Positions 2,819-43,370 of a stretch of DNA of 64,000 nt are shown piece by piece. Source of the DNA: a virus (Duplodnaviria; Caudoviricetes); the IMG/VR virus record IMGVR_UViG_3300021400_000136, positions 1-64,000 of that record. One strand, 5' to 3'. The notes under the pieces are model-generated. The model saw only the letters and a program-made list of their open reading frames with translations. It had not been told where the DNA came from and did not search any database. The translations under genes and the position numbers were made by a program. Position 1 is the stretch's first letter. The number at the start of each line of letters is the position of its first letter.

Positions 2819-5124
2819 TGGCGTATGTAAATCTTGGAAAGATGCCAAGTCATGCGCGGGAGTACGTTGTTGACTTTCCTCAGCTTGACGGCGGTCTAAA
2901 TTTACAGGAGCTTGACTACAGAATAAAAAACGATGAAACGCCGGAGATGAAGAACCTCTGGTGGAAAGACGGCCTACTGTGCTGCAGAGATGGCCAGGTG
3001 TGGATAAGTGAAGATCCGATTGGTGTTTATCATGCATCCTACAGTCGATTGTGGAATGGAAAGATGCTTCTCCATGCCGGGAATAAACTGTGCGCAGTTG
3101 ATCCGCTGGATGGTGCTGAGACTGTACTATTTACAGGCAATTCCAATTTCAATGTTGGTGGTACGTTCTTTCCCTATAACGAGAAGATGTACTACAAGAC
3201 CAAGGGGTACTATATCGAGGTTGTGTATGACGGCGGTACGGATACTTTTTCCGCTTCAGAGGTGGAGGGGTATATTCCGGTAACATACATCAGCTGTTCT
3301 TATACGAACGGGGCTGGGACGATATACCAGCCGGAGAACAGAATCAGTTCGAAGAAGACCCTTTGGTATAACTCGGCCTACACTTTAACGGTAACGCCTT
3401 CCGGTACGCTCACGGCCATAATAGAAGCAGCCGCGTTTCGTATGAAGATCAATACTCCGGGGACGTACACCTTTACATATAGCTCTGGCTGGAAGCTCAA
3501 TGGAGAGGCGGCAGATCCTCTGGACTATGGGATCTCTGTAAGTGGAACTCCAGCGAGTGGCAACACCCTTGTTGTTAAGTATGGCTTTGTTACTGAATAT
3601 TATCTGCCGGAAAAGAATCTTGACGTCACAAAAGTAGAGGTCGAGGGAGTAAACAAAGCTATCGAGTCGAAGACAGTAACTGTAAGCAAGTCAAGTATGA
3701 AGGTCACTATTGATGACTATGCTTGGAGGGCGAAGGTTACTACCTCCGGTACGTACATGTTTGTTTACGATGGGGAGGCAACACCCTCACCCGGTTGGCG
3801 TTTAAACGGAACGCTGATTACTGCTTCTGAGTACGGTTTGTCCGTTACGGCATCCCAACTCCTTACCGGTGACACGATCACTATTAAGTATACGAGAGGC
3901 GAGTGCTGGTACGATCCGGAGAACGGTATTGTAGGTTTCTACACAGCACCGAATGTTTATTATCCGGAGATCACGAACACAGTCCATATCACATACAGCA
4001 AAGAGAATGCTCTGGCTGAGAAGAACGTGATGGACTGCACTATTGCAGAAGTTTACGGCGGTACCGGGGCATTGTGTATAGTAATGGCCGGATCTGAGGA
4101 TCAGCCGAACGCGTACTTCTGGAATGGGCAGAACTCGATATCGATGGATCCGTCCTATTTCCCGATGATACAGTACCAGCTTGCGGGTGATGCAGTTGAT
4201 CCGATTACGGCGTTTGGCAAGCAGCAGGGTTTTCTTATCATCTTTAAGAAAGGCAGCATAGGCAGAACTTCTCTCGGAACGGAGACTGTAAACGAGAGAA
4301 TGACCATCGATCTTCCTTATGTGAATATCAACGCGAAGATTGGTTGTGATTTGCCTAAGTCGATCCAGCTGATAGAGAACAATCTCACATGGTGCAACAC
4401 TTCACAGGGAGTTCATTTCCTGGCGAATACATCATCCGCGTATGAAAACAACGTTGTTTGTATTTCTCAGAAGGTTAACACATCCAACAGTTCGTGGACG
4501 ATGGGATTACTAAACGATGTGCAGAGATGCGATCCGATACTTGTCACGTCTCATGATGACGAGTACCGCTACTGGCTTGTGGCTGACGGGCATGTGTGGC
4601 TTTGGGACTACAACGTAAGCAACTATAAGAATCCGGCGTGGTTCTATTTTGAAAATGTTAAGGCCAGAGGTATTGTCCAGGAGGAGAATAACGTCTGGCA
4701 TTTTGATACTCTGAGCAGGCTAACTAAATTCGGAAGTACCTATTCTGACTATGACGGTGCGATAGACAAGGTGTACAGATTCACCACTCAGTACTTTGGC
4801 ACGTATGACAGAAAGAAGAATGTTAACTCGGTAATTATCAATTTGAGGTCTTCAACGGACTCTGTTGTGAAGGTCCGGTATTTGACTGACTACGAGGAAA
4901 GAGACGATCTTACCGATCTGAGGTCTCTATCCTGGTCGCTTGTACCGAGAGATCTGTCGTTCAGAAATCTGGAAGGAACCGGATTCTCAAAGACATTCAG
5001 ACGAAAGCCACATTGCAGAAGGGTACAGTATTTCACAATGCGTCTTGAGAACAACACACCTCGTATGGACCTGGCTGTTGTCTCGGCGCAAATTTATTAT
5101 ATTTATCAAGGGGGTCAGAGATAA
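2809..5124 (+). CDS. Tail nozzle / tail tubular protein B-like (P22 gp10-like beta-propeller) with inserted repeat domains
   Basis: 771 aa, beta-rich; GGLN..E motif at the N-terminus; AITAFGKQ..LIIFK blade motifs; C-terminal YFTMRLENN..DLAVVS. Follows the adaptor. Confidence 0.65.
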   Translation: MVVMAYVNLGKMPSHAREYVVDFPQLDGGLNLQELDYRIKNDETPEMKNLWWKDGLLCCRDGQVWISEDPIGVYHASYSRLWNGKMLLHAGNKLCAVDPLDGAETVLFTGNSNFNVGGTFFPYNEKMYYKTKGYYIEVVYDGGTDTFSASEVEGYIPVTYISCSYTNGAGTIYQPENRISSKKTLWYNSAYTLTVTPSGTLTAIIEAAAFRMKINTPGTYTFTYSSGWKLNGEAADPLDYGISVSGTPASGNTLVVKYGFVTEYYLPEKNLDVTKVEVEGVNKAIESKTVTVSKSSMKVTIDDYAWRAKVTTSGTYMFVYDGEATPSPGWRLNGTLITASEYGLSVTASQLLTGDTITIKYTRGECWYDPENGIVGFYTAPNVYYPEITNTVHITYSKENALAEKNVMDCTIAEVYGGTGALCIVMAGSEDQPNAYFWNGQNSISMDPSYFPMIQYQLAGDAVDPITAFGKQQGFLIIFKKGSIGRTSLGTETVNERMTIDLPYVNINAKIGCDLPKSIQLIENNLTWCNTSQGVHFLANTSSAYENNVVCISQKVNTSNSSWTMGLLNDVQRCDPILVTSHDDEYRYWLVADGHVWLWDYNVSNYKNPAWFYFENVKARGIVQEENNVWHFDTLSRLTKFGSTYSDYDGAIDKVYRFTTQYFGTYDRKKNVNSVIINLRSSTDSVVKVRYLTDYEERDDLTDLRSLSWSLVPRDLSFRNLEGTGFSKTFRRKPHCRRVQYFTMRLENNTPRMDLAVVSAQIYYIYQGGQR

Positions 5125-14941: not shown

Positions 14942-17900
14942 ATGCCTGATTTAATAAAGAAGAGACAAGAGATGACTGACTCCGGTACGGGCGATGTTAC
15001 CCCGGTTAACGTACCGGCTCCAACTCCTATTCCTCCGGCCAGTTCGCAGGCGGCTGGAAGAGCAGCGGCTCAGGCAGCGGCATCCGACCCTAATAAGCAC
15101 GCCACCCAAGCCGGTAAAGAGACTAGCGATGAGACTAATAAAAAAATGGGCTGGGGCGACTACGCAGAACCTACACCCACTCCTGAGTCCACACCCGACT
15201 ATTCCGGTTATTCCGAACCTACACCCTCTGCTGAGGATCTTGCAGCAGAGAATGCAGATAGCTATGAGTACAATCAAGCTGGAGAGACTCCGACCGTCAA
15301 GGCTGATGTAGCTGATGATACTGTCGAGGTTGCTGTCGAACCCGAGAAGCAGGAGGAGACCAGTAGCCAGGTGTCTAAAGGCAAGGAAGATGCTACGGCA
15401 ATGGGCGGTGTCGATGCCACTAAGATGGCGGAAGACGCTGTTATGCAAGGCCGTAGGGATGCAAGATACTATCCAGACTATACTGACTTCTATGGCGGGC
15501 TTGAAATTGATGGTACATCTCCGGATCGTAATGAACTGGATGAAAACGGCATGCACATATTCAAAGGCTATGAGGACGATGAGGGCAATTATGTCTCTGG
15601 CTTTGATGAGTGGTACAGTTCTAACAAGGCCGGTCTTACAGAAATAATTGACTTCGCTACCGATGGACAATTCCATACAGGTGATGAAGTGTATGCCCAC
15701 CAGAAGCTTGCTGCTAACCTTGCCTATGACTACCAGACGATGGCAGATTACTGGCAAGGTCGTATTGACGAAGCTAAGGAGTTTGTTGACTCCGCTCATG
15801 CTGATTTCGATGCGTTCAATTTTGACCAGTATGGTGAAGCGGGAGAGGAAGCAAAAGCAACCTGGCAGCAGGAACTGGATACGTTGGATGCCCAGTATGC
15901 TTCCATGGTCGAGGGTCTTGGTATCATCCAGGAGCATGGGGAAGCGGCAAAAGAATGCTATGATCTCATGGTGGAGAATAACAAGGCTTTTGCTCAGTAC
16001 GATGACGATAAGCTTCTTACTCAGGAACAGATAGATCAGCAGGTGTTGGATGCGGCGAAGAGCGCGAATGTGGCAACTGCATTCACTGATGAGGAGATAG
16101 CAGATTTCACTAAGCTCACCGACGAGCAGTGGGACGCGCTAATCGAAAGCGGTGAAGAGAGCTATGATAAGCGCCAGTTTAAAGCGCCTCCGATACCTAT
16201 CTTCAGCACTGAAGCAACCAGAGAGGAGCAGAGACTGGCTGACCTGCAGATCATGCGACAGGCCATCCAAGGGGCTCGTGATGCGGCTCAGTACAAGAAC
16301 GATGAGATTATGTTTGGCCGTAAGTATATCGGGCAGGATAATACTATCGCAGCTTGGGATGCAGCGGAAGCAGCACTCGAAGCTAATGCCCCGACAGCAG
16401 ATTCTACTCCGGAAGAGAAGGCTGCATACAACCATGAGCGCCGGTATATTCAGGAGAGAATTGATGCCTGCGAGTATAAGGCTTTCGTTGACGAGTATGC
16501 CGATGTAAGTGATTCAGATATTCGTCAAGAGCTTTTTGAAATGCGGTTTGGTAATGGCGAAACTACGACAGAAGATAGCGCGGATACTAATGACACAGCG
16601 CATAATTTGTTGACGGCAAAATCTGCTTACGATGCAGCAGAAGAGGCCTTTAATGAAATCGCCGAAACTGCCCGTCCTACATCGGCTGAGTACCTTGATG
16701 CATACCAGGCAATGAAAGAAGCGGAAGCTGCATACGCCGAAGCACTTCAGCTCGCGAAGGATGAGTCAAAACTCGATGTCGGTGAGATCTTCGACTTTTC
16801 AGCCTTTGCAGATATCTTATCTGGGGCGCCAGAAGAAAATGAACTCAGCGCCGAAGAGCAGAAAAGAGCTGAGTATCTCCAAAGATTGCTTCAGGATCGA
16901 GAGATATCGGCTATACAAGAAGAAATTAAGAGCTACGAAAAGGACTACCCAGATGGGACTGCTATGCGGCATTGGGCAGAAGATATCGAGCTCGACGTAG
17001 AAAAGAAAGAAGCAGCACTTCTGGACGCGCAGACAGAAGCAGGTAAGCTGGATGCAGAGGCTTATCAATATGCTACTGTAGACGCGCATAGTACAGAAAA
17101 TCATACGCCGGAAGAGGCGGCACAGAAGGCCCAAGAAGCAAAAGACGCGCACAATAGAGCACTGATCGCGGAGCAGGAGCTTGCTGAGGCGAAAGGAAAA
17201 CTCGCTCTTGTGCAGGCGCTGAACCAGACCAGTATCCGATCCGAAGCAGACTATGCCGAGCAGGTTGCCAAAGGTAAAGAAATGGCTGGAGATATAGCCC
17301 AGTATAAAGAGGCTATCGATACGGCGATGGATGTTGGGCTCGATAGGAAGCCTGCGGTTGATGCTCTCGTCACTCAGTTCGGCCTTACCCAAGAGGACGC
17401 CGAGAAGTACGTGGATATGTACTTCACACTGGACGAAAAGGAGAGGGCAGTACTTTTCCCAAATGTAGATGGAGTTGAGGAAGAGGAACAAGGCTGGCTC
17501 GGAAAATGGTGGGACAAAGTTACAAGGTCTCCGTACCTTGGTGAAAAAGAAGTAGGCAAATTTACTGACGAAGAACTGAATGACTTTTACTACCATCTTG
17601 CTAAGGAAGGTGCATCAGCTGCAGCTCAATATGCGATGGGTGTAAATAATGCCTATCGTAACGAGTACAACGATCTGGCGAAAGAGCGTTTCATGCAGTT
17701 GCAGAACTACAGGGCAGGTCATAATGGCAAGTTCCAGACTGCTGTAGAAGCGGCGATGATGCCTGTAGGTAACTTTGCGCTGAATCTCACAGCCCTTCCG
17801 GAAGCTATCAGTAATTTTATCCAGGCAGAAAAACTTGGAATGTCTGTAGCTCCTACCGATCCGACAAACAGCCAGTTGGCTGAATGGGCGCAGGAAAGTT

Positions 17901-20900
17901 CCAGTAGACAAGTTACGGCTATGCTGCCGAACTTCAAACCGGCAGAGTTCCTTTATAATACTTATAACAGTATCGTTAACAGTGCTCTGTCACTGGCAAC
18001 ATTCTCAGCTCTTGGTAGCGCACTTGGCTTAACAGATGATATCGTTATCGGTGGTAAAGGTGCTTTACAGGCATTCGTATCAGCAGCTACAGATCTTGAA
18101 TTCTTCGGTTCAGCAGCAGCCAGTAGGTACAGAGAGTTGCTTGAGCAGGGAGTCGATCCGCAGAAAGCAGGATGGGCGTCAGTGTACTCCGGTCTTGCCG
18201 AGGCTATGTTCGAGCACTTCTCCATTGAGAACTTGTACCACGCAAAAGGTGTTGCTGATTGGCATAATGCACTGGATTGGGCGTGGCACACAGCGTGTTC
18301 TGCCGGTGTCGAAGGCTCTGAAGAATTGTTCACCAACTGGGCTAACCGACTTGGTGATGCCTTATACTTAAAAGAAGATAATCCTTTCAACGATAGTGTT
18401 GATGCCTATATAGCGCAGGGTTTTGAAGAAGATCAGGCTCTGCGTTTTGCTATGCACGATCTGCTGAAAGAGGATGCTCTGTCCTTCCTTGGTGGTGCTA
18501 TCTCCGGTGGTGTTAATGCCGGTAGTTCCAGCATGATGGAGTGGCAGATAGACAAAAATAAACTTGCAGATTTCCGCGCATCCCAAGGTAAGAACTTCAA
18601 CATTGATCTTCCAAACGGAAAGAAAGCCTCACAGGAACTGGGTACTTATCTGTGGAATCATGAGTTCATCAGACCCGGTGACGAACATCTCTTCAACGAG
18701 GGACAGCGCAATACTGTTGAAGAAATAAAAGATCTGGCGTGGAAAGCTAGTGAGGGTAAAGCTTCTGACGAAGAGATTGGCCGTTTGCAGTATCTCACGG
18801 CACAATTCGACAGTAAAGTACTTGATGATTTTGCTCTCGCTAACAAAGATTGGTATGGCCGTGTAGAACCGATGCGTCTGGTACAGGTATCCCAGGAAGC
18901 ACTTAATAAGCTCCTTGGTCCTGAGAACGCGCAGAAATATCTTGAGGCAGTAAGAGCTAATCCGCATGCAAAAGTGGAGAACGACTTCTCCTTAGGACTT
19001 CAGCAGGCCGTTCCAAATATGGGCAGTAATGAAGCATCGGAAGTTGCTGGATTCCTCGAAAGAATATTCACAGGCTCTGACAGAACAACACCTGAAGATA
19101 TAGCAAAGGTATTAGACTCCGAATTGCTCAGTTCTCCAGAGGCTCAGATGTATCTTTGGAATTATCTGAAGGATAAGGTACCGACAGATACTCCCGCTAT
19201 TGAAGTGGCTGCCCCGGCAGAACCGAGTGGGCTGACTCCTTCTGCTGAATGGGCTGGCCAGAATGTAAAGAGAGAACCTTCTCCGATTAAACCTGCCAGC
19301 CAGATGGAAACTGACTCTGGAACAGAGGCCGCAGATAGAGAGCCTACTCCTATTCCCTCTGCGGAACAGGCAGCGGAGAATGAGAAGAGTAGAGAAGAAG
19401 CTGAAGCCAAAGCACGGGAAGAAATACAGAATCCGTTTATTCCAATCATGCAGTCGATTGGCATGGATCCGAATATTACATCGGAGAATGTAGGCGAAGC
19501 CTTGAAGAACCTGCTCACAACAACCTGGGAGAGAGCAAAGGAAGCGGCATATCAGAATCAGATACTGAAGAACGGCTTATCTGATACTAATCGTAAGTTG
19601 AACGATATGCAGCATGAAGCAGCTGAACAGCAGACGAGAGACAGGCTTAACCGCGCCCCGAAAGGTATAAAGACCGATGCGTTGGCCCAGTACAGAGATG
19701 ACTCCGACTCCATTACTTTTGGTAATAATACCACTACCCGTAAGGAGTTCGTTGAAGCCTATATGAAGGGCTATGACCCGTTCAACGATAAGGAGATAAA
19801 GGGGCCGAAAGACGAGAAGGCAGCAAACCGTGCCTTTGACCGTATCCTATTGAACAGCACCACAAAGGATGGACTTCCTCTTGAAGGTGTTAAAGCCTCC
19901 ATGAAGAACTACGATCTTTCTTTGCGGAAGGCTATTGTTTCTGATACCAAAAAAGGAACTGGAGAGCCTAAAGACCTGGAACGCAATGGCGAACCAAAAG
20001 CGCAAGAGCCAGCATCCGGTAAGCTTAATGTTCAGACTCCAACAGATAATAGTGCTGATATGAAGGAAGGCACGGCCACCGGTACGGAAGTTACCAGAAA
20101 TGGTGAGCCTGACCAGACAGAGCCTACTGATAGTAAGCTTAATGTTCAGAATCCAACAGATGATAGTGCTGACATGAAGGACGGCACAGGTACTGGTACA
20201 GAAGTTACCAGAAAGGGTGAGCCCGAGCAGACAGAACCTACTGGCGGCAAGCTTAATGTCCAGACTCCGGCAGATACTAGCAGTGATACCACAACGGGCC
20301 AGACTTCTGTCGATGGCAGTGAGTTGTCCAGAACTGAAAAGCCTGCTGAAGAAACTCCGGTAGAAGATCAGACCACTGAAGAGGTAGCTCCAGATAAAGC
20401 GCAGCAGTTCCTTGACTATCTCCAAGTCATGATGCAGCAGACTGGCGAGATGACCGATGAGGAATTCAATGCCCTGTTTGGTGGTGCTACTGACACAATA
20501 CTCGACGCATTGGTTGGAAGAGAACCTGCTAATGATTTCGAGCGTAGAGTTATTGATGCTGCTACGCGGGAGATGGACAGGCGCACATCCGAAGACCAGA
20601 CTATGGCTCAACAGGACGAAGCTCCGGCATCAGCAGAAACTTCGGATTTCAAAACAGATGATAACCTCTTCGCAACTAATGGAAAAGAGGATAAGAGCTG
20701 GCGCAGCTGGGATGACACAATAAATAACCCCGACAGCAACGATGACGAGATTATAACCAGAGCAGAGTTTGTTGAACGCGCTATGAATGGCGTTGGCAAG
20801 ATTAAGCCGATGACTTTCGCCGAGGCAAATGACTTGTTCGATGACTTGGCTTATATCGACGAACATGATAGCGATACCAACACGGACTACGGTAAAAAAG

Positions 20901-23900
20901 GTAGCAACCCAATGTACTCTGCAGGTGGCGCATCCACTGGAGCATCTGTAGCTACTGGTAGTGAACTCAATATGAAGCCGGTTACGTACTCTGCTTCGGA
21001 TGTTCCCGGCCTTGTCGAGCTTGGCAGGACGAGCTATTCCCCCTCTAACCGTACTATTAGTTCCTCTGACCGTAGCTGGGGTGATGCAATCAGCAATGAG
21101 TACGGCAAGACCATTACTCGTGCAGAGTTCGTTGCAGCTGCTATGTCTGGACAGAATCTGTACTCCGGTACCAGGATGCCTACAATTTCCGGTGTTGCAG
21201 CTAACGATCTGTTCGATGATATTGTCGATAATAAGATTGCTTATGGCGGATATGCCGACAGAACCAATAACGGTTACAGTATAACAGACGCTACAGTTAC
21301 AGCGGATATGCTGAACGCTCCTGGTTTTGTCGGAGCTATGGCTAACACACTGGCTATCCTCGAAGCGGAAATGAGGTCGGCATCTGATACGAGCAATCAA
21401 AAACTCGCTCCGTTCATGAAGCGAGTAGATTTAGCACGTAAGCAACTTGAGGGCCTGCTTGGACGGAGTGTATCCGACGCGGCAACCGAAGTTACTGACG
21501 TACGAAATCAGATCAACACAAGACTTGCGGAGATTAATAACAGGCTTGAAGTACTGATGAGCCGGTCGGATCAGAACAAGATCGGCTATCTGGTAGACCT
21601 TAAAGAAATGTCCCAGCTCAGAGCAGAGCGTCAGAAGCTAATGACTCAGACGTTCAGACTTGGGCAGGCAGAAGCAAAGTACACGAAAGCTCTTGACCGT
21701 TTGAACTCGGCAAGAAACAGAATGTACTCTAATGATTATTATTCTTATATTGGAGGAAAATTATATGGCGGACCAGCGGGTACTCGTGGACTCACCGGCA
21801 GGAACAACGATGTGGCTCAGTCCAGAAGCGGCGGATCGGTTACAGGATCTGCCGGAGGATCAGCTCAGTCGGTACAAGGAAATGCAGGAACAGTCTCAGA
21901 GCAGACTTTTAAAACTGTTGAAGAAATACTATCCGCAGGAGGGCTGACACTCCGAGGCAAAGTACTATTCGATTCTGCCGGGATGTCCCCGCAGGAGATA
22001 GCAAATGCCAAGATCCCGTTGTCCCTTCGTAACAGCATACTCCACGCTATGCGTAATGGTGTTGGCCGTGTTGTACTTACTGACGGTGATCTGCTGAATG
22101 GTAAATCCTATATTAATGAAAAGGGTAAAGAAGTTGAGCAGACAGTCGGTGGATTCTATGACACTCTCATGGACGGTGGTACGGAAAGATCTGTTATTGT
22201 TCTGCACAAAGACAGCTTCACCGAAAAGAACATCCAACACGAATACATGCACCATATGCTCCGAAAGATGTCTGAGCGTCAGAAGCGCGGATTTCTTACC
22301 AGCGCTATCCGGACAATGTTTGGATCACGCCAGGATCTCTTCGAAGAACTGTTTGACTCCTACAAGATCGACTATGCAATTGCTCATGGCAGAGTGATCG
22401 ATGAGAACGGCAGAGTGGATGAAGATCTCGCATATATTATATATGAAGAGATGGTCGCCGACTTCTATGCAGGACTCAATCGATTCAAGACCCCCGAGAT
22501 GGCAGAAGCGATGGGGCCGCTCGTCAGGGAGATGCGTGTAAGCCTGTACAATTACTGTGAGAGACTTGGACTTGAGGACTACGCCAGATCAAAATGGATT
22601 AACAGAGAGTATACTCCTAAAGAAGGAACTCTGGACATCCGGAGAACCGGTAGAGCCACTGCGCCGTATGAGCAGCAGTTCAAAGAAAGAACTGAATCAG
22701 ACAACGAACTGGCAAAGGGCGAACACCGATTCAATCCAGAGCGAAATGCTTATGAGGCGCGATTTAGTTTGGCCAATACTATGGGTGGAATCTACGACAC
22801 ATATGGTGTGGACATTAATACTGCCGAGGATAGCAGACTTGACGAACTGGCGAGGCAAATCGACGAGGAGTACGAGGCAGCGCAAAAAGAGCAGGCTGAC
22901 ATTCGAAGCACATGGACGGATAAGGACTACGCAGATCTCACTCCCGATGAATATTGGGCCCGATATCATGAGTGGAATGAGCAGTCTGGCATTGACGCCG
23001 TAAAACGTCGCGTCGATACACTTGGGTCGTACAGTCGTGCAATCAGCAAAGAGAAAGCTTGGAGAGCGATAGACCCAGAGGCCCTTATTCAAAAGGCAAA
23101 AGATATCTACGGAACCACTGATGACTTCCGGAAATCTGGGTACATCCTGCCGGATGGAACGATGTTGGATATGTCCCAGGGTGCCAACAAGCGGACTCTG
23201 TTCCACCATGAGACCGCTCAAGAAGTTCTGTTCGCCTTGAAGTATCCGGCTTCAGACGCAATTGAAAAATTCGTAGGTCGTGGCGGGGCCATCAGAATCG
23301 ATGTAGACTCCGATGGTATTGATATCCCGCAAAGTGGCATGACCCCGGCTCAGTACGAAACCCTGCGCGACTTTCTTTCTGACTTCATAGCTACTGAAGA
23401 CTACGATAGAGCAGCATTCTATGTATCTACTTTTGGTAAGAACCTGGGAACGTCGGAGAGATTTAATCCTTCCAATACCACACAGATCTTAAACGCAATT
23501 CGCCAGTACTACGATACAGGTTCCTTCCCGAAACAGTCAACCACACAGCAGTTCTACGGTAGATATAGCCTGGCCAACACAGAAGCTGTATCTCTTGACG
23601 AACTTCAGACAGCTCGTGATGAGATGCTTGATCTGCGTCAGCAGCTCAGAGATCGTAAGGCTGATGTCGATGAGTGGAGCCGTAGAATTATGGCTGGTGA
23701 AGCTGAGATCGACGACTACAATAAGTGGCTGTCCGATAGCGGTTACAACAGACTCTACATGCAGGAACGTGAGGCAAGCAAACGGTATAACGACCTCAAC
23801 CGCGCTTATGACGAGCAGCAGGAGAGCGCGAATGCCGAAGCCGAGCAGAACGCAATAGAACAGTCCGGCTTATCCGAAGCAGATTACTTTGGCAAAGAAG

Positions 23901-26900
23901 CCGTAAAGGTATTTGGTTATACACCGTACTTCTATGACGCTGGGTACATTACTCCGAACGGACGGATGCTGAACTTCTCCGGTGAGAAAGGTAAGCACTA
24001 TGGCTCTCGAGGCCAGGATCACCGGAGCATAGGCCAGATCTTTGCGGTAACTTCCGGCACAGAAGCCATGAACAGGTTTATCAGCTATGGTAATATCCGC
24101 ATTATGGCAGAGGCTCCAGGCCTGGATATCAGCGCGAATATCGAACCGACAGCAGAGCAGTACTCTAGGATCCGTGACTTCGCAAGGAGCGCACGGGATG
24201 AGGACTACTTCAGTATCGATATCACGGGCGAAGATGGTAGGGTCATTGATACAATCGAGTACGAAAGCGTCAACCCAGCGAAGATAGTAAACGATCTGAA
24301 GAACTACTACCGTACTGGTGAAGTACCGCAGCAGTCTGTTACTGCGCAGTTCCATGCTAGCTTTAGCCTTGTTGGCGTTTCAGATGATGGTATGGAGGTA
24401 TACGAAACCTCTCAAGCCGTAAAAGATATGACCAGGGAAGAACGTATGGACGCTTTCGAAGCACGAATGGCTAACGAGTTCAGAGGCCGTACCGCTAGAT
24501 TCGAAAGAAACGGTCATATCTACTATGCTAAGTTCGATAGTACTGGCGTTTCTAAAAATATCTATGGGGACGACAAGTCTGATCAGTCCGGATGGAGAGC
24601 CAAGATAAGAGCCGGAGCAGATGGCGATATCTTTGATCTGATAGAGAATTCTACTTATAATGGCAGCAGCGCAGAAAAGAGTGGAAAAAAAGGTAAGGCC
24701 CATAACAAGACCCAACGCTGGGACTACTTCATAAAGAAGGTCCAGATCGATGGTATTGTGTATGACCTCACTGCAAATGTAAGACGTAAAAACGATGACT
24801 TCGTTTATAATATCCAGCTTAACCGGGATATTAATACAAAACCGGCGACGTCTTACAGCCCACTCCCGAAGGCGGGTTTTAACCAAGACATCGCCGGTAC
24901 AGATAATGTATCACAAAACGGCTCAACTGTCAAGTACAGTAAGCAGGAACATCCGAATGCTAGGTACAGCCTGTGCGCATTTGAAGACGGCACAAAGTTC
25001 GTAAACGTCGAAACAGATCAAGAACAGTTTGATGGACTAACGGATAAAGAAAAGCGCGACTTAGCAGAAAAAATAATAAAAGAGCGGTTCTCCGGGAGAA
25101 TAATCGGTGAGACGAACAAAGCCTTCGTCAATAGCCAGACTGCAAGAGAGTATGCTTATCCGTCAAAACGCCTTACAGATAGTGGGGTACTTGACGCTAA
25201 GATGAGGGCGTCAACCGAACTAGATAATCTACTGGAGGCCGGTAGTAATTTTAGGACGGCACCTGATGGGGCTGACGGGCATACACACCCAGACGCCGTA
25301 GGAGGATTCACTTATTTTGACACGCTGTTTAAAGTAGGTGAGGAATTCTATAAAGGTCTTGTCAATATTAAGAATAATGCCAAGGGCGCTCTTCTAGTAG
25401 ATATTACAAAAATAGAAAACGTCACTAAGGACACATACAACTCATACGGAAAAAATCCGAAGTTCGTATTCCTTAATGACGTTTCTAATGATATTAAATC
25501 ACAGAATAACCCGAATGTCAAGAACCAAAATGAATCTGAGCCGAGCTACTCCATCGCTGTCTCCGATCCCGATACGTTGGACTTCCTTAACGACCAACTC
25601 GAGAACGGGGATGTAGTTTACACCTACAAATCCTTCCTTGAGTACGAAGACGAGAATGGAGATCCGTATCTAATTGCTCCTATGGCTGGTGTGCAGAAAG
25701 ACGAGACGGGCAAGAAGAGCCAGTCGCATGCCCTTCGTCCAGGTGTGTGGGAAGAGTCTGTTGGTAATCCCAACTCTAAGAGCCTCGGTAAGAAAGTCAA
25801 TGACAAGACCGGTGAAGTATCCTGGACTTATGGACTTGAGAAGAGTGACGTAGATGGTTCTGTTGTACCGGCTGCATATAACCCGTATCAGCACTCCAGT
25901 GATGTAGTTCTCAATGACCAGTTCTCCATTGCGTACAAACGTCCAAACCTGGTAACGTATATGTGCGCTATTCCTAAGAGTGAACTGACCAGTGGCTATC
26001 ACTTTGGTGTAACCGATCCTGAGAAGGCAACTCGTTCTGACGGCGATATTGTTACCGCAAAAGACGCGGTTGGTATGCACGACTGGAAGAGCGGTTCCCT
26101 AGCAAGCCAGTTAGAAAACACACAAAGACATGTGTATCTTTCTCGGTGGCTCATGCCGGTACGTAAGCTGTCCAACATAGAAGTTGCTCAGCAGTACAAG
26201 GAGATCCTCGATAGGGAAGCACCCGGTCTTGGTGTGCCATTCAATGTTGTACCTTCCGGTTTGCTCTCAGCTCTTCAGGAAGTTGGCGTTCCAATTGACC
26301 TTACTGGTACAGGACTATCTGAAGCCAACTACAGAAAATATCTTTCTGAAGTAAACGCTGCTCGTGAAGAGGCAGGTCTTGAACCGTTCCCGTACTCTTA
26401 TCAGACTAAAGCCGAAAGAGATGCCGCAAAGAAAGAACGGAAGAACGCTTCCAAACGGTTCTCGATCTCTGGAGACAACCTTGATAATCTTGACGATCTT
26501 CTGATGGATTATGATCTTTCGGATCTCGGAAGAATAGTTTCTGACACATTTGGTTCTACCTTTGAAACAGAAGAGGACGAAATGCCTCCTGAACTTCCGT
26601 ACGAACAACAGCGTCCTAGAAGATCTGTAGAGAACCCGACTCACAATCCAACTGCTTATCTGAAACCAGAAACACTAAATGCATGGCTGTCCGGAAGGGG
26701 CTTTGCCGATACAGGTAACCCGAACTATGCGCAGGCTTACATCGGATGGATGAATCCAGAGGACTTCCTATACTTGACAACCTCTACCTATGATTACGAG
26801 GACAATAGAGTAAGGGCGGAAGGATACTACGGTGATCTGGAAGATATCTCTAGCAGGGCGCAACGTGGAAGAGAAGCCGATACAATTCATCTTTCAATTG

Positions 26901-29900
26901 ATTCTGAAACAGGAAGAGTATACGGGCATGAAGGGCGCCATCGTATGGCCTACCTGCAAAGCCTTGGTGTGGAGAGAGTCCCTGTTCTTTTCTTTGACAG
27001 CGGAAATAAGTATGATAAGGAAATAATGGAGGACTATACTCTATCTGGAGAGCAGAGGCCAGGGAAGAAAGTTACTCTCGATAATCCTCTGATCCCTCTC
27101 AGCAATGGGTACAGAGGGCTTGTCGAGAACGAGTTCGTTAAAGGCGAAGAGCAAGACAACGATCTTCAGACAGCGCGATTTTCCATCACGGACGATTCGA
27201 ATGCCGATGGCTATACTCTGTCAGATATTGATTCCACAGGAAGAGAATTGACGGACGAGCAGTATTACTACTTCCGCAATTCGAAAGTAGTGGACGAAGA
27301 TGGGCATTTAATTCCGCTTTACCATGGAACGAATGCATTCGGCTTTACCGAGATAGACTTCGATAAAGCAGACGATGGAATATCCTTCTTCCTCACGGAT
27401 AGTCCAGAAGTGGCCGGGTCCTATACAAGGAACAATACTGTCCGATCCTTATTTGATAAGCAAAGACAGCGGCGGGCGATTGATGTATCAAAGCTTTCGG
27501 ATGAAGATCTAGCTTCGCTGTTTTCCCAAGTTAGTATACCGTACTTCGAATCAGCTACCGTATCGAAATTTGAGGATGTACTCAGAACCTTCACAGGCCC
27601 ATTGAACGCCGCAAAAATGCGATACGCCAGTTTCTTTGAAGAAGAACTGTTACCGTCCAGAGAAGATCTTGGCCTTACTGAAACGGACTTAGCCTTCTAC
27701 GACGCGCTGAAAGGCAACAGCACTAGTGTCGAAAGCATCATAGATTTGCTTGATAGAGCAGATAAATTCTATTATAGCCTTCGCAAAAAGATATGGGATA
27801 CCGACGAAAGCTATATTTGGGACGAAATGCGATCGCTGCAACCGCAATTACAAACCGCAGCTTCTCAGGCACAAAGATTTCTGGCTGACCATAATTCTGC
27901 TGGAGTATCTTTGGAGGATAATGTTTTTATTACGGATCCAGGTAGCAAGAATTTCTACACGAGAGAGCAAATCGAGAGACTTACTGGCAGAAGACAAGAG
28001 GAAGAAGAGCTCGGAAGGAACTCTGCCGGTATTTACAAGGGGTACGCAAATCTAACAAATCCATTTATTGTTGATGCAAATGGAGCTGAATGGAATCAGA
28101 TTCCGGTCGATCAAGAAGTAGTAGACTATCTAAAAGCACTTAATTCGCCAGAGTTCTACGTCTCAGAATGGGCAGAAGACGGAGAGGTTAAAACAAGGGG
28201 AATAGCTAAGTACGCAAAGGATCACGGATATGACGGCGCTATAATTAGAAACTGTGTTGACATCGGAGAGTATAAGCGTTCCTACGACTACGAAGCGTAT
28301 TCTACTCCGGCAACTCTGGTGCTATGCTTTGAACAGAATCAGTTCAAAGACTATAGAAATACAGAACCTACTGATGGCATTGATTTAAGATTTTCTATTG
28401 CCGATACCTATGACGCCTTTGGAGATGAAATCGATGTCCAAGATGGAACAGTTCTGAATGCAACCAAGTCCACACTTTCTGATCAGCTTTTCTATTCTGA
28501 AGACGGTAATACCGCCTACTACCAGCTCGACTCTGGTGAGACGGTGGTTATGGAGAACGTAGGGGAAGACTCTCCCGAAGCACGATACATTAATTTCTTG
28601 GAGGCAACGAACAATGCCAACAGTACTGACACAACCACAGCAAAACCTTATACGATACCTCCTGCAACTCGGTATGAATCTGATGGATATAATATCGGTG
28701 AATCGAATGATGGCCTACGACGAGGAGCGGAAGAAGTTCCTTCGGCGAATCAAGAAGGAACACTTCGACGTGCAGGAAGTAATGGAGAACGCAATGAACA
28801 GAGTCAACCGCAGAGTGAAGAGGCGGAAGGTGTAAGGTTCTCTGCCACTATCCCGACAGCTGACGACCCGAACCATCCGACAGCCTTCGTCAACCAGAAC
28901 GGCGATGTGGTTACCACTGCTGAAGCTTACCCGTACGGATCTATGGAGCGCATGATCATCGAGGCATGGAACACTGGTGACTTCAGATCTATTGAGGACC
29001 AGATTAACGAAATGCTCGATATCGGCCACGCCAGAGATGAAGTCTTCGATATGATGGAAGAGATCGCTGCACAGCCTCTGGGGCTTACTCCTCAGGAGCG
29101 CGACGCAGTCTACAGACAGATCGAAGAGATGCGTGTACGGTATGGAACGATGCCGTCGGCGAATGTTACGAAGCGGGATGTACATTTCCCAGTAGCTACA
29201 GACGACGACACCAAACTGATGAAGGGCGCACAGACCCATGCACAGGAGGCCGAGACCGAGTGGCTGTCTGAAGAGATCATGGCAGAAGCACTCCGTAACG
29301 AGATTCTCTCCTATGTCCCTGCATCTAATAAGTCCTCCATCGAAAAAGCGGAAGACTATATCAAAGCGAAGAAAGGTAATTACGAAGAGATCGCAAGAGA
29401 TGTCCACGCTTGGCTGGCATCCGGAGAGCGTGTCAAACCGTGGCAGGTAGCAGTCGGCGAACTCCTTCTTAAAGAGGTAGAAACCGAAGGCAGAGCAGAC
29501 CTCGCTATGTCTCTCGTAATAGACCTTACTCTTATGGCCCATGAAACCGGACAGGCTCTGCAAGCTTTCGCTATTCTCCGGAAGGCGACTCCGCGTGGAC
29601 AGCTCTACTATCTGCAAGGTGTTGTTAACCAACTGAATAAAAAGTATGAGAAACAGATCCGAGAAGGGAAGATGGGCAAGATCGAACTTCCGCAGGATGC
29701 TGCGCAGAGAATGCTCGCATGCGAAACACGGCAGGAACTGAATGACGTAGTCGAGGAAATAAAGGACGAGATCGCGAAAAAGATTCCTGTATCATGGGCT
29801 GATCGCTGGAACGCATGGAGATACCTGGCTATGTTGGGTAACCCCAGAACACACGTTCGTAACATGCTTGGTAACGGCCTGTTCCGTCCCGCCGTATTTA

Positions 29901-32900
29901 TCAAAGACGTTATCTCCAGAAGACTGGAGGATATAGCAAGTAGGCACGGCAAGCTGGAAGGTAGGTCTCGTATAGCAGGAGCGAATCTGAAATCCGATAC
30001 GGAATGGATGCGCTATGCCAACGAAGACTATGAGGAAATGTACAAGATCCTTGTAGGCGAGGCAACCGGTAATAAGTATGCTGATGCCAACGACATCCTC
30101 TCCAGACGAGATCTCTGGGGTAAAGACAAGTGGCTCGGTGGTAAGTTCCTTGCATGGGCAGACCGTAAGAACAGCGACTTACTTACTAAGGAAGATGCTA
30201 CATTCCTAAAGAAGTACTACACCAGAGCGTTTGCAGAATTCCTGCAGGCGAGGGGTGTAACGGAAGAAGATCTCCGTGATAAGAAGTTTGGCGCTACCAA
30301 GGCAAATAAGAAGCTCATCAACGAAGCAAGAGCATGGGCAACAATCGAGGCTCAGAGGAATACCTACCGTGATGCCAATGCAGTAGCTTCCTGGCTTAAC
30401 TCCATGAAGCGTCAGGGTACTGTTCCTTACACAATCCTCGAAGGTGTTGTTCCGTTCACCAAGACCCCGATGAACATCCTTGCCCGTGGTATTGAGTACT
30501 CTCCGATTGGACTGATTCAGAGCGTACGGCAACTGGCTAAAGATCTTCGTAGTCCGAGCGAGATGACCACCAGCCAAGCGCTGGATAGACTCGCTGCCGG
30601 TATGACCGGTACGATGATCGTTGGCCTCGGCCTGTTCCTCACTGCTATGGGCTGGCTCCGTGGAAGTGGTGGAGATGATGATAAGAAGAAAGAGTTCGAA
30701 GAGCTCATGGGTCATCAGGCATGGTCTCTTGAACTGTTTGGCTACAGCTACACCATCGACTGGATGGCACCGGCTGCACTGCCACTCTTCATTGGCTCCG
30801 CTATCTACGATATGCTGGCGACAGAAAGGGAAGAGGAGCTCGGCTTCGAAGATATCGTCAAGGCACTGCTTGGTATAGCGGATCCTCTCAGCCAGTTGTC
30901 CATGCTGGATGGTATCTCTACTATGCTCTCCAACCTGGCGGATGCACAGGGGACGGAACAATTCTCCGTATTACTCTGGACTGCACTGACAAGCTATGTT
31001 GGACAGGGTATGCCTACACTCCTTGGGCAGGTAGCTAGAACATTCGATCCGGATAGACGGTCAACGTATATCCAGCCGGGTAGCAAAAACCCGATGCTGC
31101 AGCGGTTTATCCAGTCCTCCATACAGGCTAAGATCCCGGGTTGGGAGAACCAGAAGATGCGGTATGTGGATAACTGGGGTAGAACAGACTCAGCCAATAC
31201 ACCTTGGGAGAAATTCCTAAAGGGCGTTGAGAACTTCCTTTCACCGGGTTATCTGAACAAGATCGAGACCTCCGCTGTTGAGGACGAGCTGATGAGGCTG
31301 TACGAAGCAACCGGAGATAAGAACATTCTGCCAGACAGAATGGGTAAGTACTTCCAGGTTGACGGAGAACGGAAGAACCTCACAGCAGATGAGTACGAGC
31401 AATTGCTCACGGAAAAAGGACAGATGCACTATAACCTTCTGAACGAGGTTATGTCCTCTGAGTATTACGCTTCTCTGACTGATGAACAAAAGGCAAAGCT
31501 GCTCCTCAACGCTGGAGAATTCTCAAAGAACTACGGCAAGCAGATGGTAGATCCAGAGTTCGATATGGACAGCCACTGGATGGATGTAGCAAGGGCAATA
31601 GGCCCCGCCGATTATCTGATGATCCAGGATGATCTTTCCCACAACAGGACTCATGACCAGCTGTTCACCTACCTTGTATCCAATCCGAATCTCAGCTACG
31701 ATCAGATCGCATATCTCATCGCTGATGAATATGCCGCTCCGGACAAGATTCCCAGTGTCGGTAACAACGGCTACAACTATGAGATCACTGAGGAAGATGA
31801 GGCAGCGATGCAGGAGATCTTCAAAGATCTGGTACATACGCGCCTTGCTGAATTAGAGACTGATCCCAGGTATGTTGCAGGCGATGAGTACAAGAAGGGC
31901 GATATGATGGACAACCTCTATAATGAAATTAAAGAGGATGTCAAAACAATATACGCCGAACAGCTCGATGCATCCGACCGTCCGATGGTACTTGGAAAGG
32001 CATCTTCTGTAGGAACCGAGTCCTTTAATATGGTACTCGATCTTACACGTAACGAGATCGAAGGAGAGTACAGGGATGACATCGCAGCACAGGCTGGATG
32101 GTTAAGCCAGAAGTACCGGGCTGACTCCCAGATCAGTAACCCCGATAGAGACGGCTGGGATATCAAGCTCAGTGCTGATGACAAGGACGAGCTGTATGAT
32201 GAATTCCAGAAAGCTTGGGAGCCTGCATACAGAAAGATGCTTACTGAAGATCCTGAGTTCCGCAACGCCACAAGCCGAGCATATCAGGATAAGATGATAG
32301 CATCCTTGTTCAATGAAGTTTCCCAGCAGGTAGAAGATGCATACGCTTCTAAACTGTACAAGTCCGGTAAGGCTGATGAAGTCATCGGCGATCCGAAGGG
32401 GACGGCAAAGAAAGACTGGCTGAAGAACTATGAGATTGCCAACGAAGCCTACACCAATCCTAAGGATCAGGCAGCGTGGTTAGCAAAGAGATTTACCGGT
32501 GCTACCACTTTGGACAACCCCGACAGACCTGGGTACAATATCAAGACGAGCGATGCACAGCAGGCTCAACTTGCTCAGATCGAACAGGATAGATTCACTG
32601 CCGAATATGAAGCAATGAAGAAAGATCCGAAGTTCAAGAGCATGACACCGGAAGAGCAGGCTATCCAGACATACCAGCTGGCGCAGAACATCATGGATGT
32701 CGAAGAGGCCAAATACTCCAGATATCTGCTGGATAGAGGCGCAAAGATCGAACAGGCAATCGATACTCAGTGCACGAATTCTGAATACTTCAATATGGTA
32801 TTCTCAGAAGATCTCACTGATAGCGAACGGTACGACCTGATCGAACAACGCTATGACAGATATGTTGGTAAGAGTATTCTCAATAACTCCCTCGACTACC

Positions 32901-33334: not shown

Positions 33335-33379
33335 AAAACCCCCTACTACCGTAATAAGTAGTAGGGGGTATCTTTTTTT
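33335..33379. terminator. Bidirectional intrinsic terminator between the convergent halves of the genome
   Basis: CCCCCTACTAC (33339-33349) / GTAGTAGGGGG (33358-33368), with AAAA 5' and a T tract 3'. Confidence 0.85.
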
Positions 33380-42970: not shown

Positions 42971-42999
42971 TTGACAATAATTAAAAATTGTGTTAAACT
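42971..42999 (+). promoter_or_regulatory. Rightward promoter TTGACA-N17-TAAACT (extended TG) pointing into attP
   Basis: -35 at 42971-42976, -10 at 42994-42999. Confidence 0.7.
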
Positions 43000-43137: not shown

Positions 43138-43186
43138 AAAAAGTTCTCAGATTTGAGTAAATCGCTTGAATCTGGGAACTTTTTTT
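43138..43186. terminator. Bidirectional terminator after the tRNA 3' end / integrase
   Basis: 20-bp stem AAAAAGTTCTCAGATTTGAG / CTTGAATCTGGGAACTTTTT, with G.U pairs on +. Confidence 0.75.
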
Positions 43187-43370
43187 ATTACTTTGATTTC
43201 ACATTTGTTGCAAACATGAGTAAAAGTAATAAACAAATGTTGCGAATGTGTAGCAACTGTTGTTGTTTTTACGTGGTACTTACGGGGTACAAAGTCAAAG
43301 TCCGCATTTGTGTGGTGGTTATGTGGTAGTACTACCACATGAGTACCACATTTATGTGGTACAATTTTTA

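What the first reader, a model, noticed from the sequence alone, without database searches (positions are those of the whole stretch)
25408..25521. Second, sequence-unrelated copy of the same antisense promoter + stem-RNA design after LPD3-like domain 2
Seen: TTGACA-N17-TG-A-TTTAAT, the same 6-nt gap to the stem start (25486), a 16-bp stem complete only on -, an internal CUUCGG and a U tail. Geometry is identical to 24838-24933 but the sequence differs. The other TGTCAA sites I checked in the gene (25360, 29431, 31939) have no matching -10. Inference: recurrence with paralogous domains argues for selection and for domain-specific RNA partners.
Basis: partly seen in the sequence, partly recalled or inferred. 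Interest (0 to 1): 0.85.

Follow-up and report, generated by a model that had tools for sequence, protein, structure and literature searches.

The report
Antisense small-RNA gene behind LPD3 domain
A complete tiny RNA gene (promoter, hairpin RNA, terminator) is written backwards inside the end of one domain of a giant phage virion-protein gene, and nearly every relative of that domain keeps it, so domain and RNA travel together and the RNA most likely keeps the domain's expression or activity in check.

Summary
On the minus strand at 25521-25405 lie TTGACA-N17-(TG-A)-TTTAAT, a 6-nt gap, a 16-19 bp stem with G-U pairs, and a U-rich tail. The window alone does not prove function, because promoter-like sites are not enriched there. 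Comparative data do. About 40 non-redundant relatives of this cassette and of its paralogue at 24825-24933 come from phage contigs, Clostridia MAGs and stand-alone bacterial genes. All keep TTG...-N17-TAnnnT, a long hairpin and a U tract, always antisense to the LPD3-like reading frame. The stem is kept by compensatory changes (19 of 29 pairs). Folding is stronger on the minus strand in 29 of 29 units. The promoter hexamers use rare codons and persist where the protein differs or the frame shifts.

The two window units are diverged paralogues, not unrelated inventions. The shared CUUCGG comes from shared Pro-Lys codons. This copy alone, of 39, lacks the -11 A. Most likely it is a cis-antisense regulator, like lambda OOP or a type I antitoxin. 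A direct RNA-protein partnership is not excluded. It is absent from Rfam and from the literature searched. This scan has noted the same LPD3-RNA pairing before on other DNA.

The parts
14942..33328 (+). Giant 6128-aa polyvalent virion-protein gene that hosts both units
   Evidence: Single open frame. Pfam LPD3 and ART-PolyVal hits. The record is a complete 80,151-bp virus genome with terminal repeats.
24962..25543 (+). LPD3-like cassette D (domain 2). It is ordered to about residue 170; the linker 176-194 is disordered
   Evidence: It has its own orthologue family in giant phage proteins. hhalign to cassette C gives 77%, E 2e-5. AF2 model pLDDT 86. There is no direct Pfam hit.
25516..25521 (-). 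-35 hexamer TTGACA of unit 2
   Evidence: TTG is invariant in 39 of 39 homologous units.
25493..25501 (-). Extended -10: TG-A-TTTAAT. The -11 position is T here
   Evidence: Homologues have TAnnnT (38 of 39), mostly TATACT. The spacer is 17 nt in 37 of 39.
25405..25487 (-). Predicted RNA 2 of about 80 nt. The inferred start is near 25486. Outer stem 25487-25470 with 25431-25413, inner helices, and U-rich tail 25416-25405
   Evidence: Fold -32.5 kcal/mol, z -6.9. Covariation in 18 D-type units. The covariance model R1 matches 25398-25521 at 122 bits. The start and end of the transcript are inferred, not measured.
24359..24961 (+). LPD3 cassette C (domain 1), paralogue of D
   Evidence: Pfam LPD3 at 24476-24805, 31.7 bits in the whole-protein scan. 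Its own orthologue family.
24825..24933 (-). Unit 1: TTGACA (24933-24928), N17, TG-A-TACATT (24910-24905), stem arms 24898-24885 and 24854-24841, then a short U tail
   Evidence: The model built only from D-type units finds it (23.7 bits, E 0.027). C-type relatives keep the design.
25538..26466 (+). The next cassette. It is 93% identical in DNA to another phage (L001) whose flanks differ, so the cassette boundary lies 17 nt beyond the -35 of unit 2
   Evidence: blastn.

Best explanation
25405-25521 (minus strand) is a self-contained small-RNA gene overprinted on the last structured residues and the disordered linker of an LPD3-like domain cassette. A host sigma-A/sigma-70-type promoter fires antisense to the giant gene. 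Transcription starts at the base of a long hairpin and stops at its U tract, giving an RNA of about 80 nt. The unit is inherited and exchanged together with the LPD3 cassette.

The most likely action is cis-antisense. The RNA pairs with the perfectly complementary stretch of the LPD3-encoding mRNA, probably starting from its loops, and the duplex lowers or times expression of the LPD3-bearing message, for example through RNase III cleavage. Lambda OOP does this on cII, and the 3'-overlapping RNA antitoxins of Bacillus prophages do it on their toxin mRNAs.

Shown here: conservation of the promoter, structure and strand, and the link to LPD3. Inferred: that a transcript exists, its ends, its pairing target and the outcome. 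My odds: about 0.9 that it is a real selected antisense RNA gene, and about 0.4-0.45 that it acts in cis on the mRNA.
For: 1. Promoter. In 39 non-redundant units, -35 TTG is 39 of 39, the -10 has T1 39/39, A2 38/39 and T6 39/39, and the spacer is 17 nt in 37. The hexamers stay fixed while the 17-nt spacer and the encoded linker peptide vary. L003 keeps TTGACT in a shifted frame (N-S-Q instead of N-V-K). The -10 is written with rare codons: AGT is 11% of Ser and ATA is 16% of Ile. The linker is predicted to be disordered.

2. Structure. In 18 D-type units, 90.6% of cells are paired and 19 of 29 pairs have compensatory changes. The covariation score is 0.419 against 0.195 in shuffles (0 of 500 reach it) and about 0.1 when partners are slid. 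In 28 units from several LPD3 subfamilies, all 15 pairs of the outer helix covary (this alignment was fitted to the model).

3. Strand. The minus fold is more stable in 29 of 29 units, by a mean of 7.5 kcal/mol, with 117 G-U pairs on minus and 33 on plus. On the fixed structure there are 54 G-U against 12 A-C cells. In 300 other windows of the same gene there is no bias (+0.5, sd 5).

4. Terminator. A U-rich run follows the stem on minus only.

5. Orientation and linkage. A strict scan of 260 kb finds 38 units, all antisense to the giant frame and none in the sense direction. Further units sit behind other cassettes that hit Pfam LPD3. Stand-alone LPD3 genes in bacterial chromosomes carry one or three units at their 3' end.

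6. The covariance model finds exactly two hits in the 64-kb window, both behind LPD3-type cassettes.
Against: No RNA has been observed; everything rests on sequence. This copy's -10 lacks the -11 A that all 38 other units keep, so it may be weak or silent. The alternative TAATAT would need a 19-nt spacer.

In D-type units the stem overlaps conserved protein motifs (NVTKD, FLxDxS), so part of the sequence conservation is protein-driven, although the compensatory changes are not.

A very stable hairpin with its 5' end paired is not an obviously good pairing partner, so the hairpin could simply be a terminator. Why a lytic-cycle late gene would need damping is unexplained. Nothing here separates action on the mRNA from action on the protein.
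Confidence: 0.55

Rival explanations
1. RNA-protein partnership, like a type III antitoxin. The hairpin RNA binds the LPD3 domain made from the opposite strand and neutralises, loads or guides it. The RNA may stay with the virion protein until delivery.
For: The unit travels strictly with LPD3-type cassettes, including stand-alone genes and tandem RNA arrays. The best structural neighbours of the domain model, though weak (Z 4.3 or less), are mostly RelE/ParE/BrnT, CdiA-CT and colicin D/E5 RNase toxins. Structure is conserved rather than sequence, which is typical of protein-bound RNAs.
Against: No RNA sequence motif is shared across subfamilies beyond the promoter and tail. The fold match is not significant. 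The gene order and orientation differ from known type III loci. No binding test was possible with these tools.
Confidence: 0.2
2. The act of transcription matters, not the RNA. A strong antisense promoter with an immediate terminator acts as a polymerase trap, a head-on roadblock or an insulator. It blocks early read-through into the giant late gene, or it titrates host polymerase.
For: The promoters are near consensus and are followed at once by a terminator, so the RNA is little more than the terminator hairpin.
Against: This does not explain the strict link to LPD3 cassettes or the presence behind stand-alone bacterial LPD3 genes. Hairpins are far longer (15-20 bp plus inner helices, all covarying) than termination needs.
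Confidence: 0.1
3. Trans-acting RNA aimed at the host or at rival elements. It would act as a decoy or regulator made early by host polymerase, and its position inside LPD3 cassettes is only hitch-hiking.
For: Host-type consensus promoters would fire immediately on DNA entry. Polyvalent proteins are early-invasion weapons (PMC5512222).
Against: The stem sequences differ freely between relatives, which argues against a fixed trans target. No target was sought or found here.
Confidence: 0.07
4. There is no RNA gene. The hexamers are a conserved peptide motif of the linker (S-I...N-V-N, for example a processing site), and the inverted repeat is a DNA-level feature such as a recombination joint for cassette exchange, or chance.
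For: Cassette exchange boundaries lie next to the unit. Within the window alone, promoter-like sites and hairpins of this strength are not rare. The shared features of the two window copies are inherited codons.
Against: The motif persists in a different frame and with different residues (S to I/N/R, V-K to S-Q), always keeping promoter-critical bases, and it uses rare codons. The G-U asymmetry (117 against 33; 54 against 12) shows selection on one RNA strand, not on duplex DNA. The spacer length is fixed while its sequence is free.
Confidence: 0.05

Closest known systems
Phage lambda OOP RNA (short countertranscript from promoter pO, complementary to the 3' part of cII; RNase III-dependent cleavage of cII mRNA: Krinke and Wulff 1987 and 1990, as cited in PMC5869508)
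   Same: A phage-encoded short RNA with its own host-type promoter. It consists largely of a terminator hairpin and is fully complementary to the 3' part of a coding region on the other strand.
   Different: OOP is one locus in one phage group, and most of it lies outside the coding sequence. Here the whole gene, promoter included, is overprinted in frame inside a multidomain ORF. It is tied to one protein domain family, repeated per domain, and moves with that domain between genomes. No transcript or RNase III dependence has been shown.
Type I toxin-antitoxin loci with convergent, 3'-overlapping RNA antitoxins in Firmicutes prophages (txpA/RatA, bsrG/SR4, yonT/SR6; par of pAD1).
   Same: A convergent small RNA with its own promoter overlaps the 3' end of the partner's message. 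Both occur in mobile elements of Firmicutes, and the stand-alone LPD3 gene plus RNA modules look like portable two-gene cassettes.
   Different: Type I toxins are small hydrophobic peptides, whereas LPD3 is a soluble alpha/beta domain of about 170 residues. Toxicity of LPD3 has not been shown. Here the RNA gene usually lies wholly inside the coding sequence.
Type III toxin-antitoxin systems (ToxIN and relatives)
   Same: A structured RNA is genetically locked to a possibly RNase-like protein. One stand-alone locus (L182) has a tandem array of RNA units.
   Different: In ToxIN the RNA repeats lie upstream on the same strand and are cut out by the toxin. Here each unit is antisense and downstream, with its own promoter and terminator. 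The protein fold match is weak and points to RelE/BECR-like toxins, not to ToxN.
LPD3 (Pfam PF18798), a domain of unknown function in polyvalent proteins (Iyer et al. 2017, PMC5512222)
   Same: The host cassettes belong to or resemble this family, and the giant protein fits the phage-type polyvalent architecture.
   Different: The paper describes the protein domain only. It contains no mention of antisense RNA, small RNA or promoters.

Membership tests
Cis-encoded antisense small RNA with own promoter and intrinsic terminator (OOP-like countertranscript) | Functional sigma-70/sigma-A promoter on the antisense strand | tested here: inconclusive
   The sequence-level promoter is conserved in 39 units with signs of nucleotide-level selection, but activity was not measured. 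This copy has T at -11.
Cis-encoded antisense small RNA with own promoter and intrinsic terminator (OOP-like countertranscript) | Stable hairpin followed by a U tract on the RNA strand | tested here: met
   The U tract is on minus only.
Cis-encoded antisense small RNA with own promoter and intrinsic terminator (OOP-like countertranscript) | Complementary to the coding region of the gene on the other strand | tested here: met
   The unit lies wholly inside the giant ORF. All 38 units of the strict scan are antisense to the open frame.
Cis-encoded antisense small RNA with own promoter and intrinsic terminator (OOP-like countertranscript) | Transcript detected, and target mRNA reduced or cleaved | not testable with these tools
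   No expression data are available.
Type I toxin-antitoxin | Toxin is a small hydrophobic membrane peptide | tested here: not met
   The partner is an alpha/beta domain of about 170 residues, modelled at pLDDT 86.
Type I toxin-antitoxin | RNA antitoxin overlaps and pairs with the toxin mRNA | tested here: met
   The overlap exists by position. The effect is untested.
Type III toxin-antitoxin (ToxIN-like) | RNA repeats upstream of the toxin gene on the same strand, processed by the toxin | tested here: not met
   The units are antisense, at the 3' end, and each has its own promoter and terminator.
Pfam LPD3 (PF18798), for the host domains | Score above the curated cut-off of 27 bits | tested here: inconclusive
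   Cassette C scores 31.7 bits in the whole protein but 22.9 bits alone. Cassette D has no Pfam hit but matches C by hhalign at 77%, E 2e-5. Other unit-bearing cassettes score 29 and 28.6 bits.
BECR / RelE-ParE-fold RNase toxins, for the host domain | Shared fold with solved members | tested here: inconclusive
   VIA-align Z is 4.3 or less, below the tool's trust level, yet about 20 of the top 50 chains are RelE, ParE, BrnT, CdiA-CT, colicin D/E5, MqsR or YoeB. Foldseek finds nothing at E 0.001 or better.
Any Rfam family | Covariance-model match | tested here: not met
   No match at E 1 or better over 24300-26000, both strands.

The most novel reading that the evidence does not exclude
LPD3 and its hairpin RNA form a new kind of two-part module. 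The RNA partner (an antidote, loader or guide) is encoded antisense inside the coding sequence of the protein it binds. Each LPD3 cassette in an injected polyvalent protein therefore carries its own private RNA, possibly delivered with the protein into the next host.
Probability: 0.2. Interest if true: 0.9.

Novelty: new variant of a known kind. Interest (0 to 1): 0.75.

Why it matters
A recurring 'linker motif' in giant phage effector proteins (S-I/V ... N-V-N/K) turns out to be the imprint of a promoter on the other strand. A whole RNA gene is hidden in a stretch annotated only as protein.

The RNA is bound to one protein domain family of unknown function (LPD3). It moves with that domain between phages of gut Clostridia and into bacterial chromosomes. 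This gives a concrete handle on LPD3: it probably needs restraint, as a toxin-like effector would.

It also adds an RNA family absent from Rfam. And it shows that domain shuffling in polyvalent proteins can carry regulatory RNA genes along. It further warns that protein-only annotation and codon-based analyses of such genes misread nucleotide-level constraint as peptide conservation.

Tried and rejected
- Near relatives in the phage record collection by blastn: no match.
- Single-protein locus search: it found only the neighbouring cassette, which showed the mosaic boundary instead.
- Two contig look-ups returned no DNA.
- Foldseek against the PDB: nothing at E 0.001 or better.
- Profile search of solved-structure sequences: only chance-level rows.
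- PADLOC: one marginal NsnC row (E 0.003) for cassette D, which I did not take further.
- The idea that CUUCGG forms a UUCG tetraloop: rejected, because neither fold uses it that way.
- The idea that the minus-strand preference reflects base composition: rejected by the 300-window control.
- The apparent exceptions without a unit (L166, L171, L177, L022, L045): on inspection all carry one, with a 5' insertion, a weaker -35 or a different hairpin.
- A pattern scan of IMG/VR (TTGACA-N17-TATACT-N5-TAG) returned mostly ordinary promoters. Only 9 of 83 matches lie antisense in ORFs over 1000 aa, and all 9 fold at -30 kcal/mol or better.
- No complex prediction was run, because the tool takes no RNA.
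Full report
**The locus**

The window is part of a complete 80,151-bp virus record with terminal repeats. Bases 14942-33328 are one 6128-aa open frame with Pfam LPD3 and ART-PolyVal hits. This is a phage-type polyvalent protein in the sense of Iyer et al. 2017 (PMC5512222). The finding lies at the 3' end of a 194-codon cassette (D, 24962-25543). That cassette follows a paralogous cassette (C, 24359-24961) carrying the Pfam LPD3 match.

**Check of the observation**

Every element is at the stated place on the minus strand:
- TTGACA at 25521-25516, then a 17-nt spacer.
- TG-A-TTTAAT ending at 25493, then six bases.
- A stem with core arms 25484-25470 and 25431-25417. It has 15 bp with one G-U, 16 with a second G-U, and 19 with a bulge.
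- A U-rich tail down to about 25405.

The minus strand folds at -32.5 kcal/mol (z -6.9) and the plus strand at -25.6. Unit 1 (24825-24933) has the same layout.

Two details need correction. The -10 has T at its second position, so the consensus scan does not list it. CUUCGG is not used as a tetraloop in either fold.

Taken alone, the window gives no statistical case:
- Promoter-like sites are fewer than in shuffles (15 against 22.4).
- TTGACA is at its chance frequency.
- The window holds 34 inverted repeats of 12 nt or more.
- About 3% of other 92-nt windows of the gene fold at -30 kcal/mol or better.

**The two units are paralogues**

The tails of C and D align residue by residue: T-K ... 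P-K ... F ... D-I/V ... D ... S-Q-N ... V-K. Profile comparison of the two cassette families gives 77% probability, E 2e-5 over 129 columns.

The shared -35 is the reverse complement of T/N-V-K codons. The shared TG is that of S-Q codons. CUUCGG is that of P-K codons. So the 'identical geometry' inside this window is inherited, and the recurrence is not two independent events.

**Comparative evidence**

Each cassette has its own orthologues in about 90 giant phage proteins at 40-60% identity. I fetched DNA for D-type relatives, for C-type relatives and for others.

In codon alignments the plus strand keeps AGTATA or AGTGTA, then 17 bases, then TGTCAA. This holds even where the tail peptide cannot be aligned (L016-L019, 31-45% identity). 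On the minus strand this reads TTGACA-N17-TATACT or TACACT.

Over 39 non-redundant units:

| Feature | Count |
|---|---|
| -35 TTG | 39 of 39 |
| -10 position 1 is T | 39 of 39 |
| -10 position 2 is A | 38 of 39 |
| -10 position 6 is T | 39 of 39 |
| Spacer of 17 nt | 37 of 39 |

The single exception at -10 position 2 is the unit under study.

The constraint is on nucleotides, not on the peptide:
- The spacer sequence and the encoded residues vary freely.
- L003 keeps TTGACT one base out of register, read as N-S-Q instead of N-V-K.
- Substitutions of the Ser codon (to Ile, Asn, Arg) always keep the base that is the -7 T.
- The hexamer is written with rare codons. AGT is 11% of Ser codons and ATA is 16% of Ile codons in these genes.
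- The AF2 model of cassette D (pLDDT 86) is ordered to about residue 170 and disordered over 176-194, which is where the promoter lies.

**The hairpin**

All units fold into a long hairpin of -25 to -42 kcal/mol. It starts 6-8 nt after the -10 and is followed by a U-rich run.

On an alignment of 18 D-type units with a stated structure:
- 90.6% of cells pair.
- 19 of 29 pairs show changes on both sides.
- The covariation score is 0.419 against 0.195 in shuffles (0 of 500 reach it).
- The score is about 0.1, with about 45% pairing, when partners are slid.

Examples include GTC/GAC becoming ATC/GAT, AAG/CTT becoming GAG/CTC, and wholly different stems in L015-L017 and L174.

In a model-fitted alignment of 28 units from several LPD3 subfamilies, all 15 pairs of the outer helix covary at 96% pairing. 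That alignment leans towards the model.

**Which strand**

The minus strand folds better in 29 of 29 units, by a mean of 7.5 kcal/mol, with 117 G-U pairs on minus and 33 on plus. On the fixed structure there are 54 G-U cells against 12 A-C cells.

In 300 other windows of the same gene there is no such bias: the difference is +0.5 with sd 5, and G-U counts are 941 against 858. A DNA palindrome or a sense-mRNA structure would not give this asymmetry. The U tract also exists on minus only. The selected molecule is therefore an antisense RNA.

**Link to LPD3**

- A strict scan of 260 kb of fetched loci finds 38 units, all antisense to the giant frame and none in the sense direction.
- Further units in L001 and L005 sit behind other cassettes that hit Pfam LPD3 (29 bits, 28.6 bits, and E 0.004).
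- Apparent exceptions among relatives all carry the unit on inspection.
- A covariance model built only from D-type units finds exactly two places in the 64-kb window, namely units 2 and 1. It also recognises C-type and other units.
- It hits 7 of 151 genomes sampled from one order of Clostridia, a patchy distribution like that of a mobile element. Most of the new hits I inspected (6 of 8) again lie antisense to LPD3-like tails; two partial hits have no long antisense frame.
- Stand-alone LPD3 genes in bacterial chromosomes carry it too. L183, beside shikimate-pathway genes, has one unit. L182 has three in tandem.
- Titles of the matching MAG contigs point to gut Clostridia as hosts: Oscillospiraceae, Ruminococcaceae and Christensenellaceae. 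Their sigma-A consensus fits the promoter.
- Cassette exchange is real. Bases 25538-26466 are 93% identical to another phage whose flanks differ, and the boundary lies 17 nt beyond the -35.

**What the domain may be**

Foldseek finds nothing. An all-against-representatives alignment gives only Z 4.3 or less, below the trust level. However, about 20 of the top 50 chains are RelE, ParE, BrnT, CdiA-CT, colicin D/E5, MqsR or YoeB. This is a hint of a BECR-type RNase-like fold and no more.

**Mechanism**

Shown: a conserved antisense promoter-hairpin-terminator unit tied to LPD3 cassettes.

Inferred: host polymerase makes an RNA of about 80 nt that starts at the stem base.

The most likely action (about 0.4-0.45) is pairing with the complementary stretch of the LPD3-bearing mRNA to damp or time its expression. 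Lambda OOP works this way on cII (PMC5869508 and the Krinke and Wulff papers it cites), as do the 3'-overlapping RNA antitoxins of Firmicutes prophages (my own knowledge).

The excess of G-U pairs also means that the sense mRNA folds less well than the antisense RNA. That suits a reading frame which must still be translated.

Rivals are:
- A direct RNA-protein partnership, like type III (about 0.2).
- A transcription-only role (about 0.1).
- A trans target (about 0.07).
- No RNA gene at all (about 0.05).

**This copy in particular**

Its hairpin is intact and strongly strand-biased. Its -10 (TTTAAT) has lost the -11 A that every other unit keeps. L019 differs at that hexamer by one base, with ATTATA on the plus strand. 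The perfect -35 and the TG may compensate in part. Only a measurement can tell whether unit 2 still fires.

**Novelty**

There is no Rfam match. The paper that defined polyvalent proteins and LPD3 does not mention antisense RNA or promoters. No paper in the library links polyvalent proteins with an antisense RNA of this kind.

Earlier notes of this scan describe the same LPD3-RNA pairing on other genomes. I reached the reading independently before consulting them. I then used them as a lead to the stand-alone genes, which I checked.

Noticed in passing
window 25538-26466 and 28509-28836; L001 3013-3939 and 5087-5414: Two blocks of the giant gene are 93% and 84% identical in DNA to another 81-kb phage (its giant ORF is 7765 aa), while the DNA between and around them is unrelated. 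This is cassette-wise mosaicism, and the first block matches one linker-to-linker cassette.
   Followed up: partly
L182 2501-3244 (ENA contig k141_377193): A stand-alone LPD3 gene in a bacterial chromosome has a repetitive C-terminal tail that is the imprint of three tandem antisense promoter-hairpin units (-35 at 2976, 3093 and 3213).
   Followed up: partly
L183 2501-3556: A stand-alone C-type LPD3 gene lies directly behind shikimate-pathway genes (DHquinase_II, shikimate dehydrogenase/kinase). It has one antisense unit (-35 at 3345), and its open frame runs on past the unit into unrelated sequence.
   Followed up: partly
window 43138-43359: An intergenic stretch is packed with inverted repeats (29-nt, 17-nt, 16-nt and 15-nt arms). 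It lies just downstream of a plus-strand TTGACA-N17-TAAACT at 42971. It may be a regulatory region or an origin.
   Followed up: no
window 33338-33369: A perfect 12-bp GC-rich hairpin has T runs on both sides, between the plus-strand and minus-strand gene blocks. It looks like a bidirectional terminator at the end of the giant gene.
   Followed up: no
L007-L010, about 2030-2110: The linker after the D-type cassette holds two TGTCAA motifs (ENVNGDYSLEGAENVKKRYSL), as if the -35-bearing linker segment had been duplicated.
   Followed up: no
L166 about 1930-2060: This D-type unit has an extra small hairpin inserted between the -10 and the main stem, so the predicted RNA has a 5' extension.
   Followed up: partly
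window 24415-24387 (minus): TTGAGA-N17-TACCAT is followed by a fold of -31.9 kcal/mol. The covariance model does not find it, so it is probably chance.
   Followed up: partly
L189 and L191 (G010:C115, G006:C20): These are partial covariance-model hits with no long antisense open frame. They could be free-standing hairpin RNAs or false positives.
   Followed up: no
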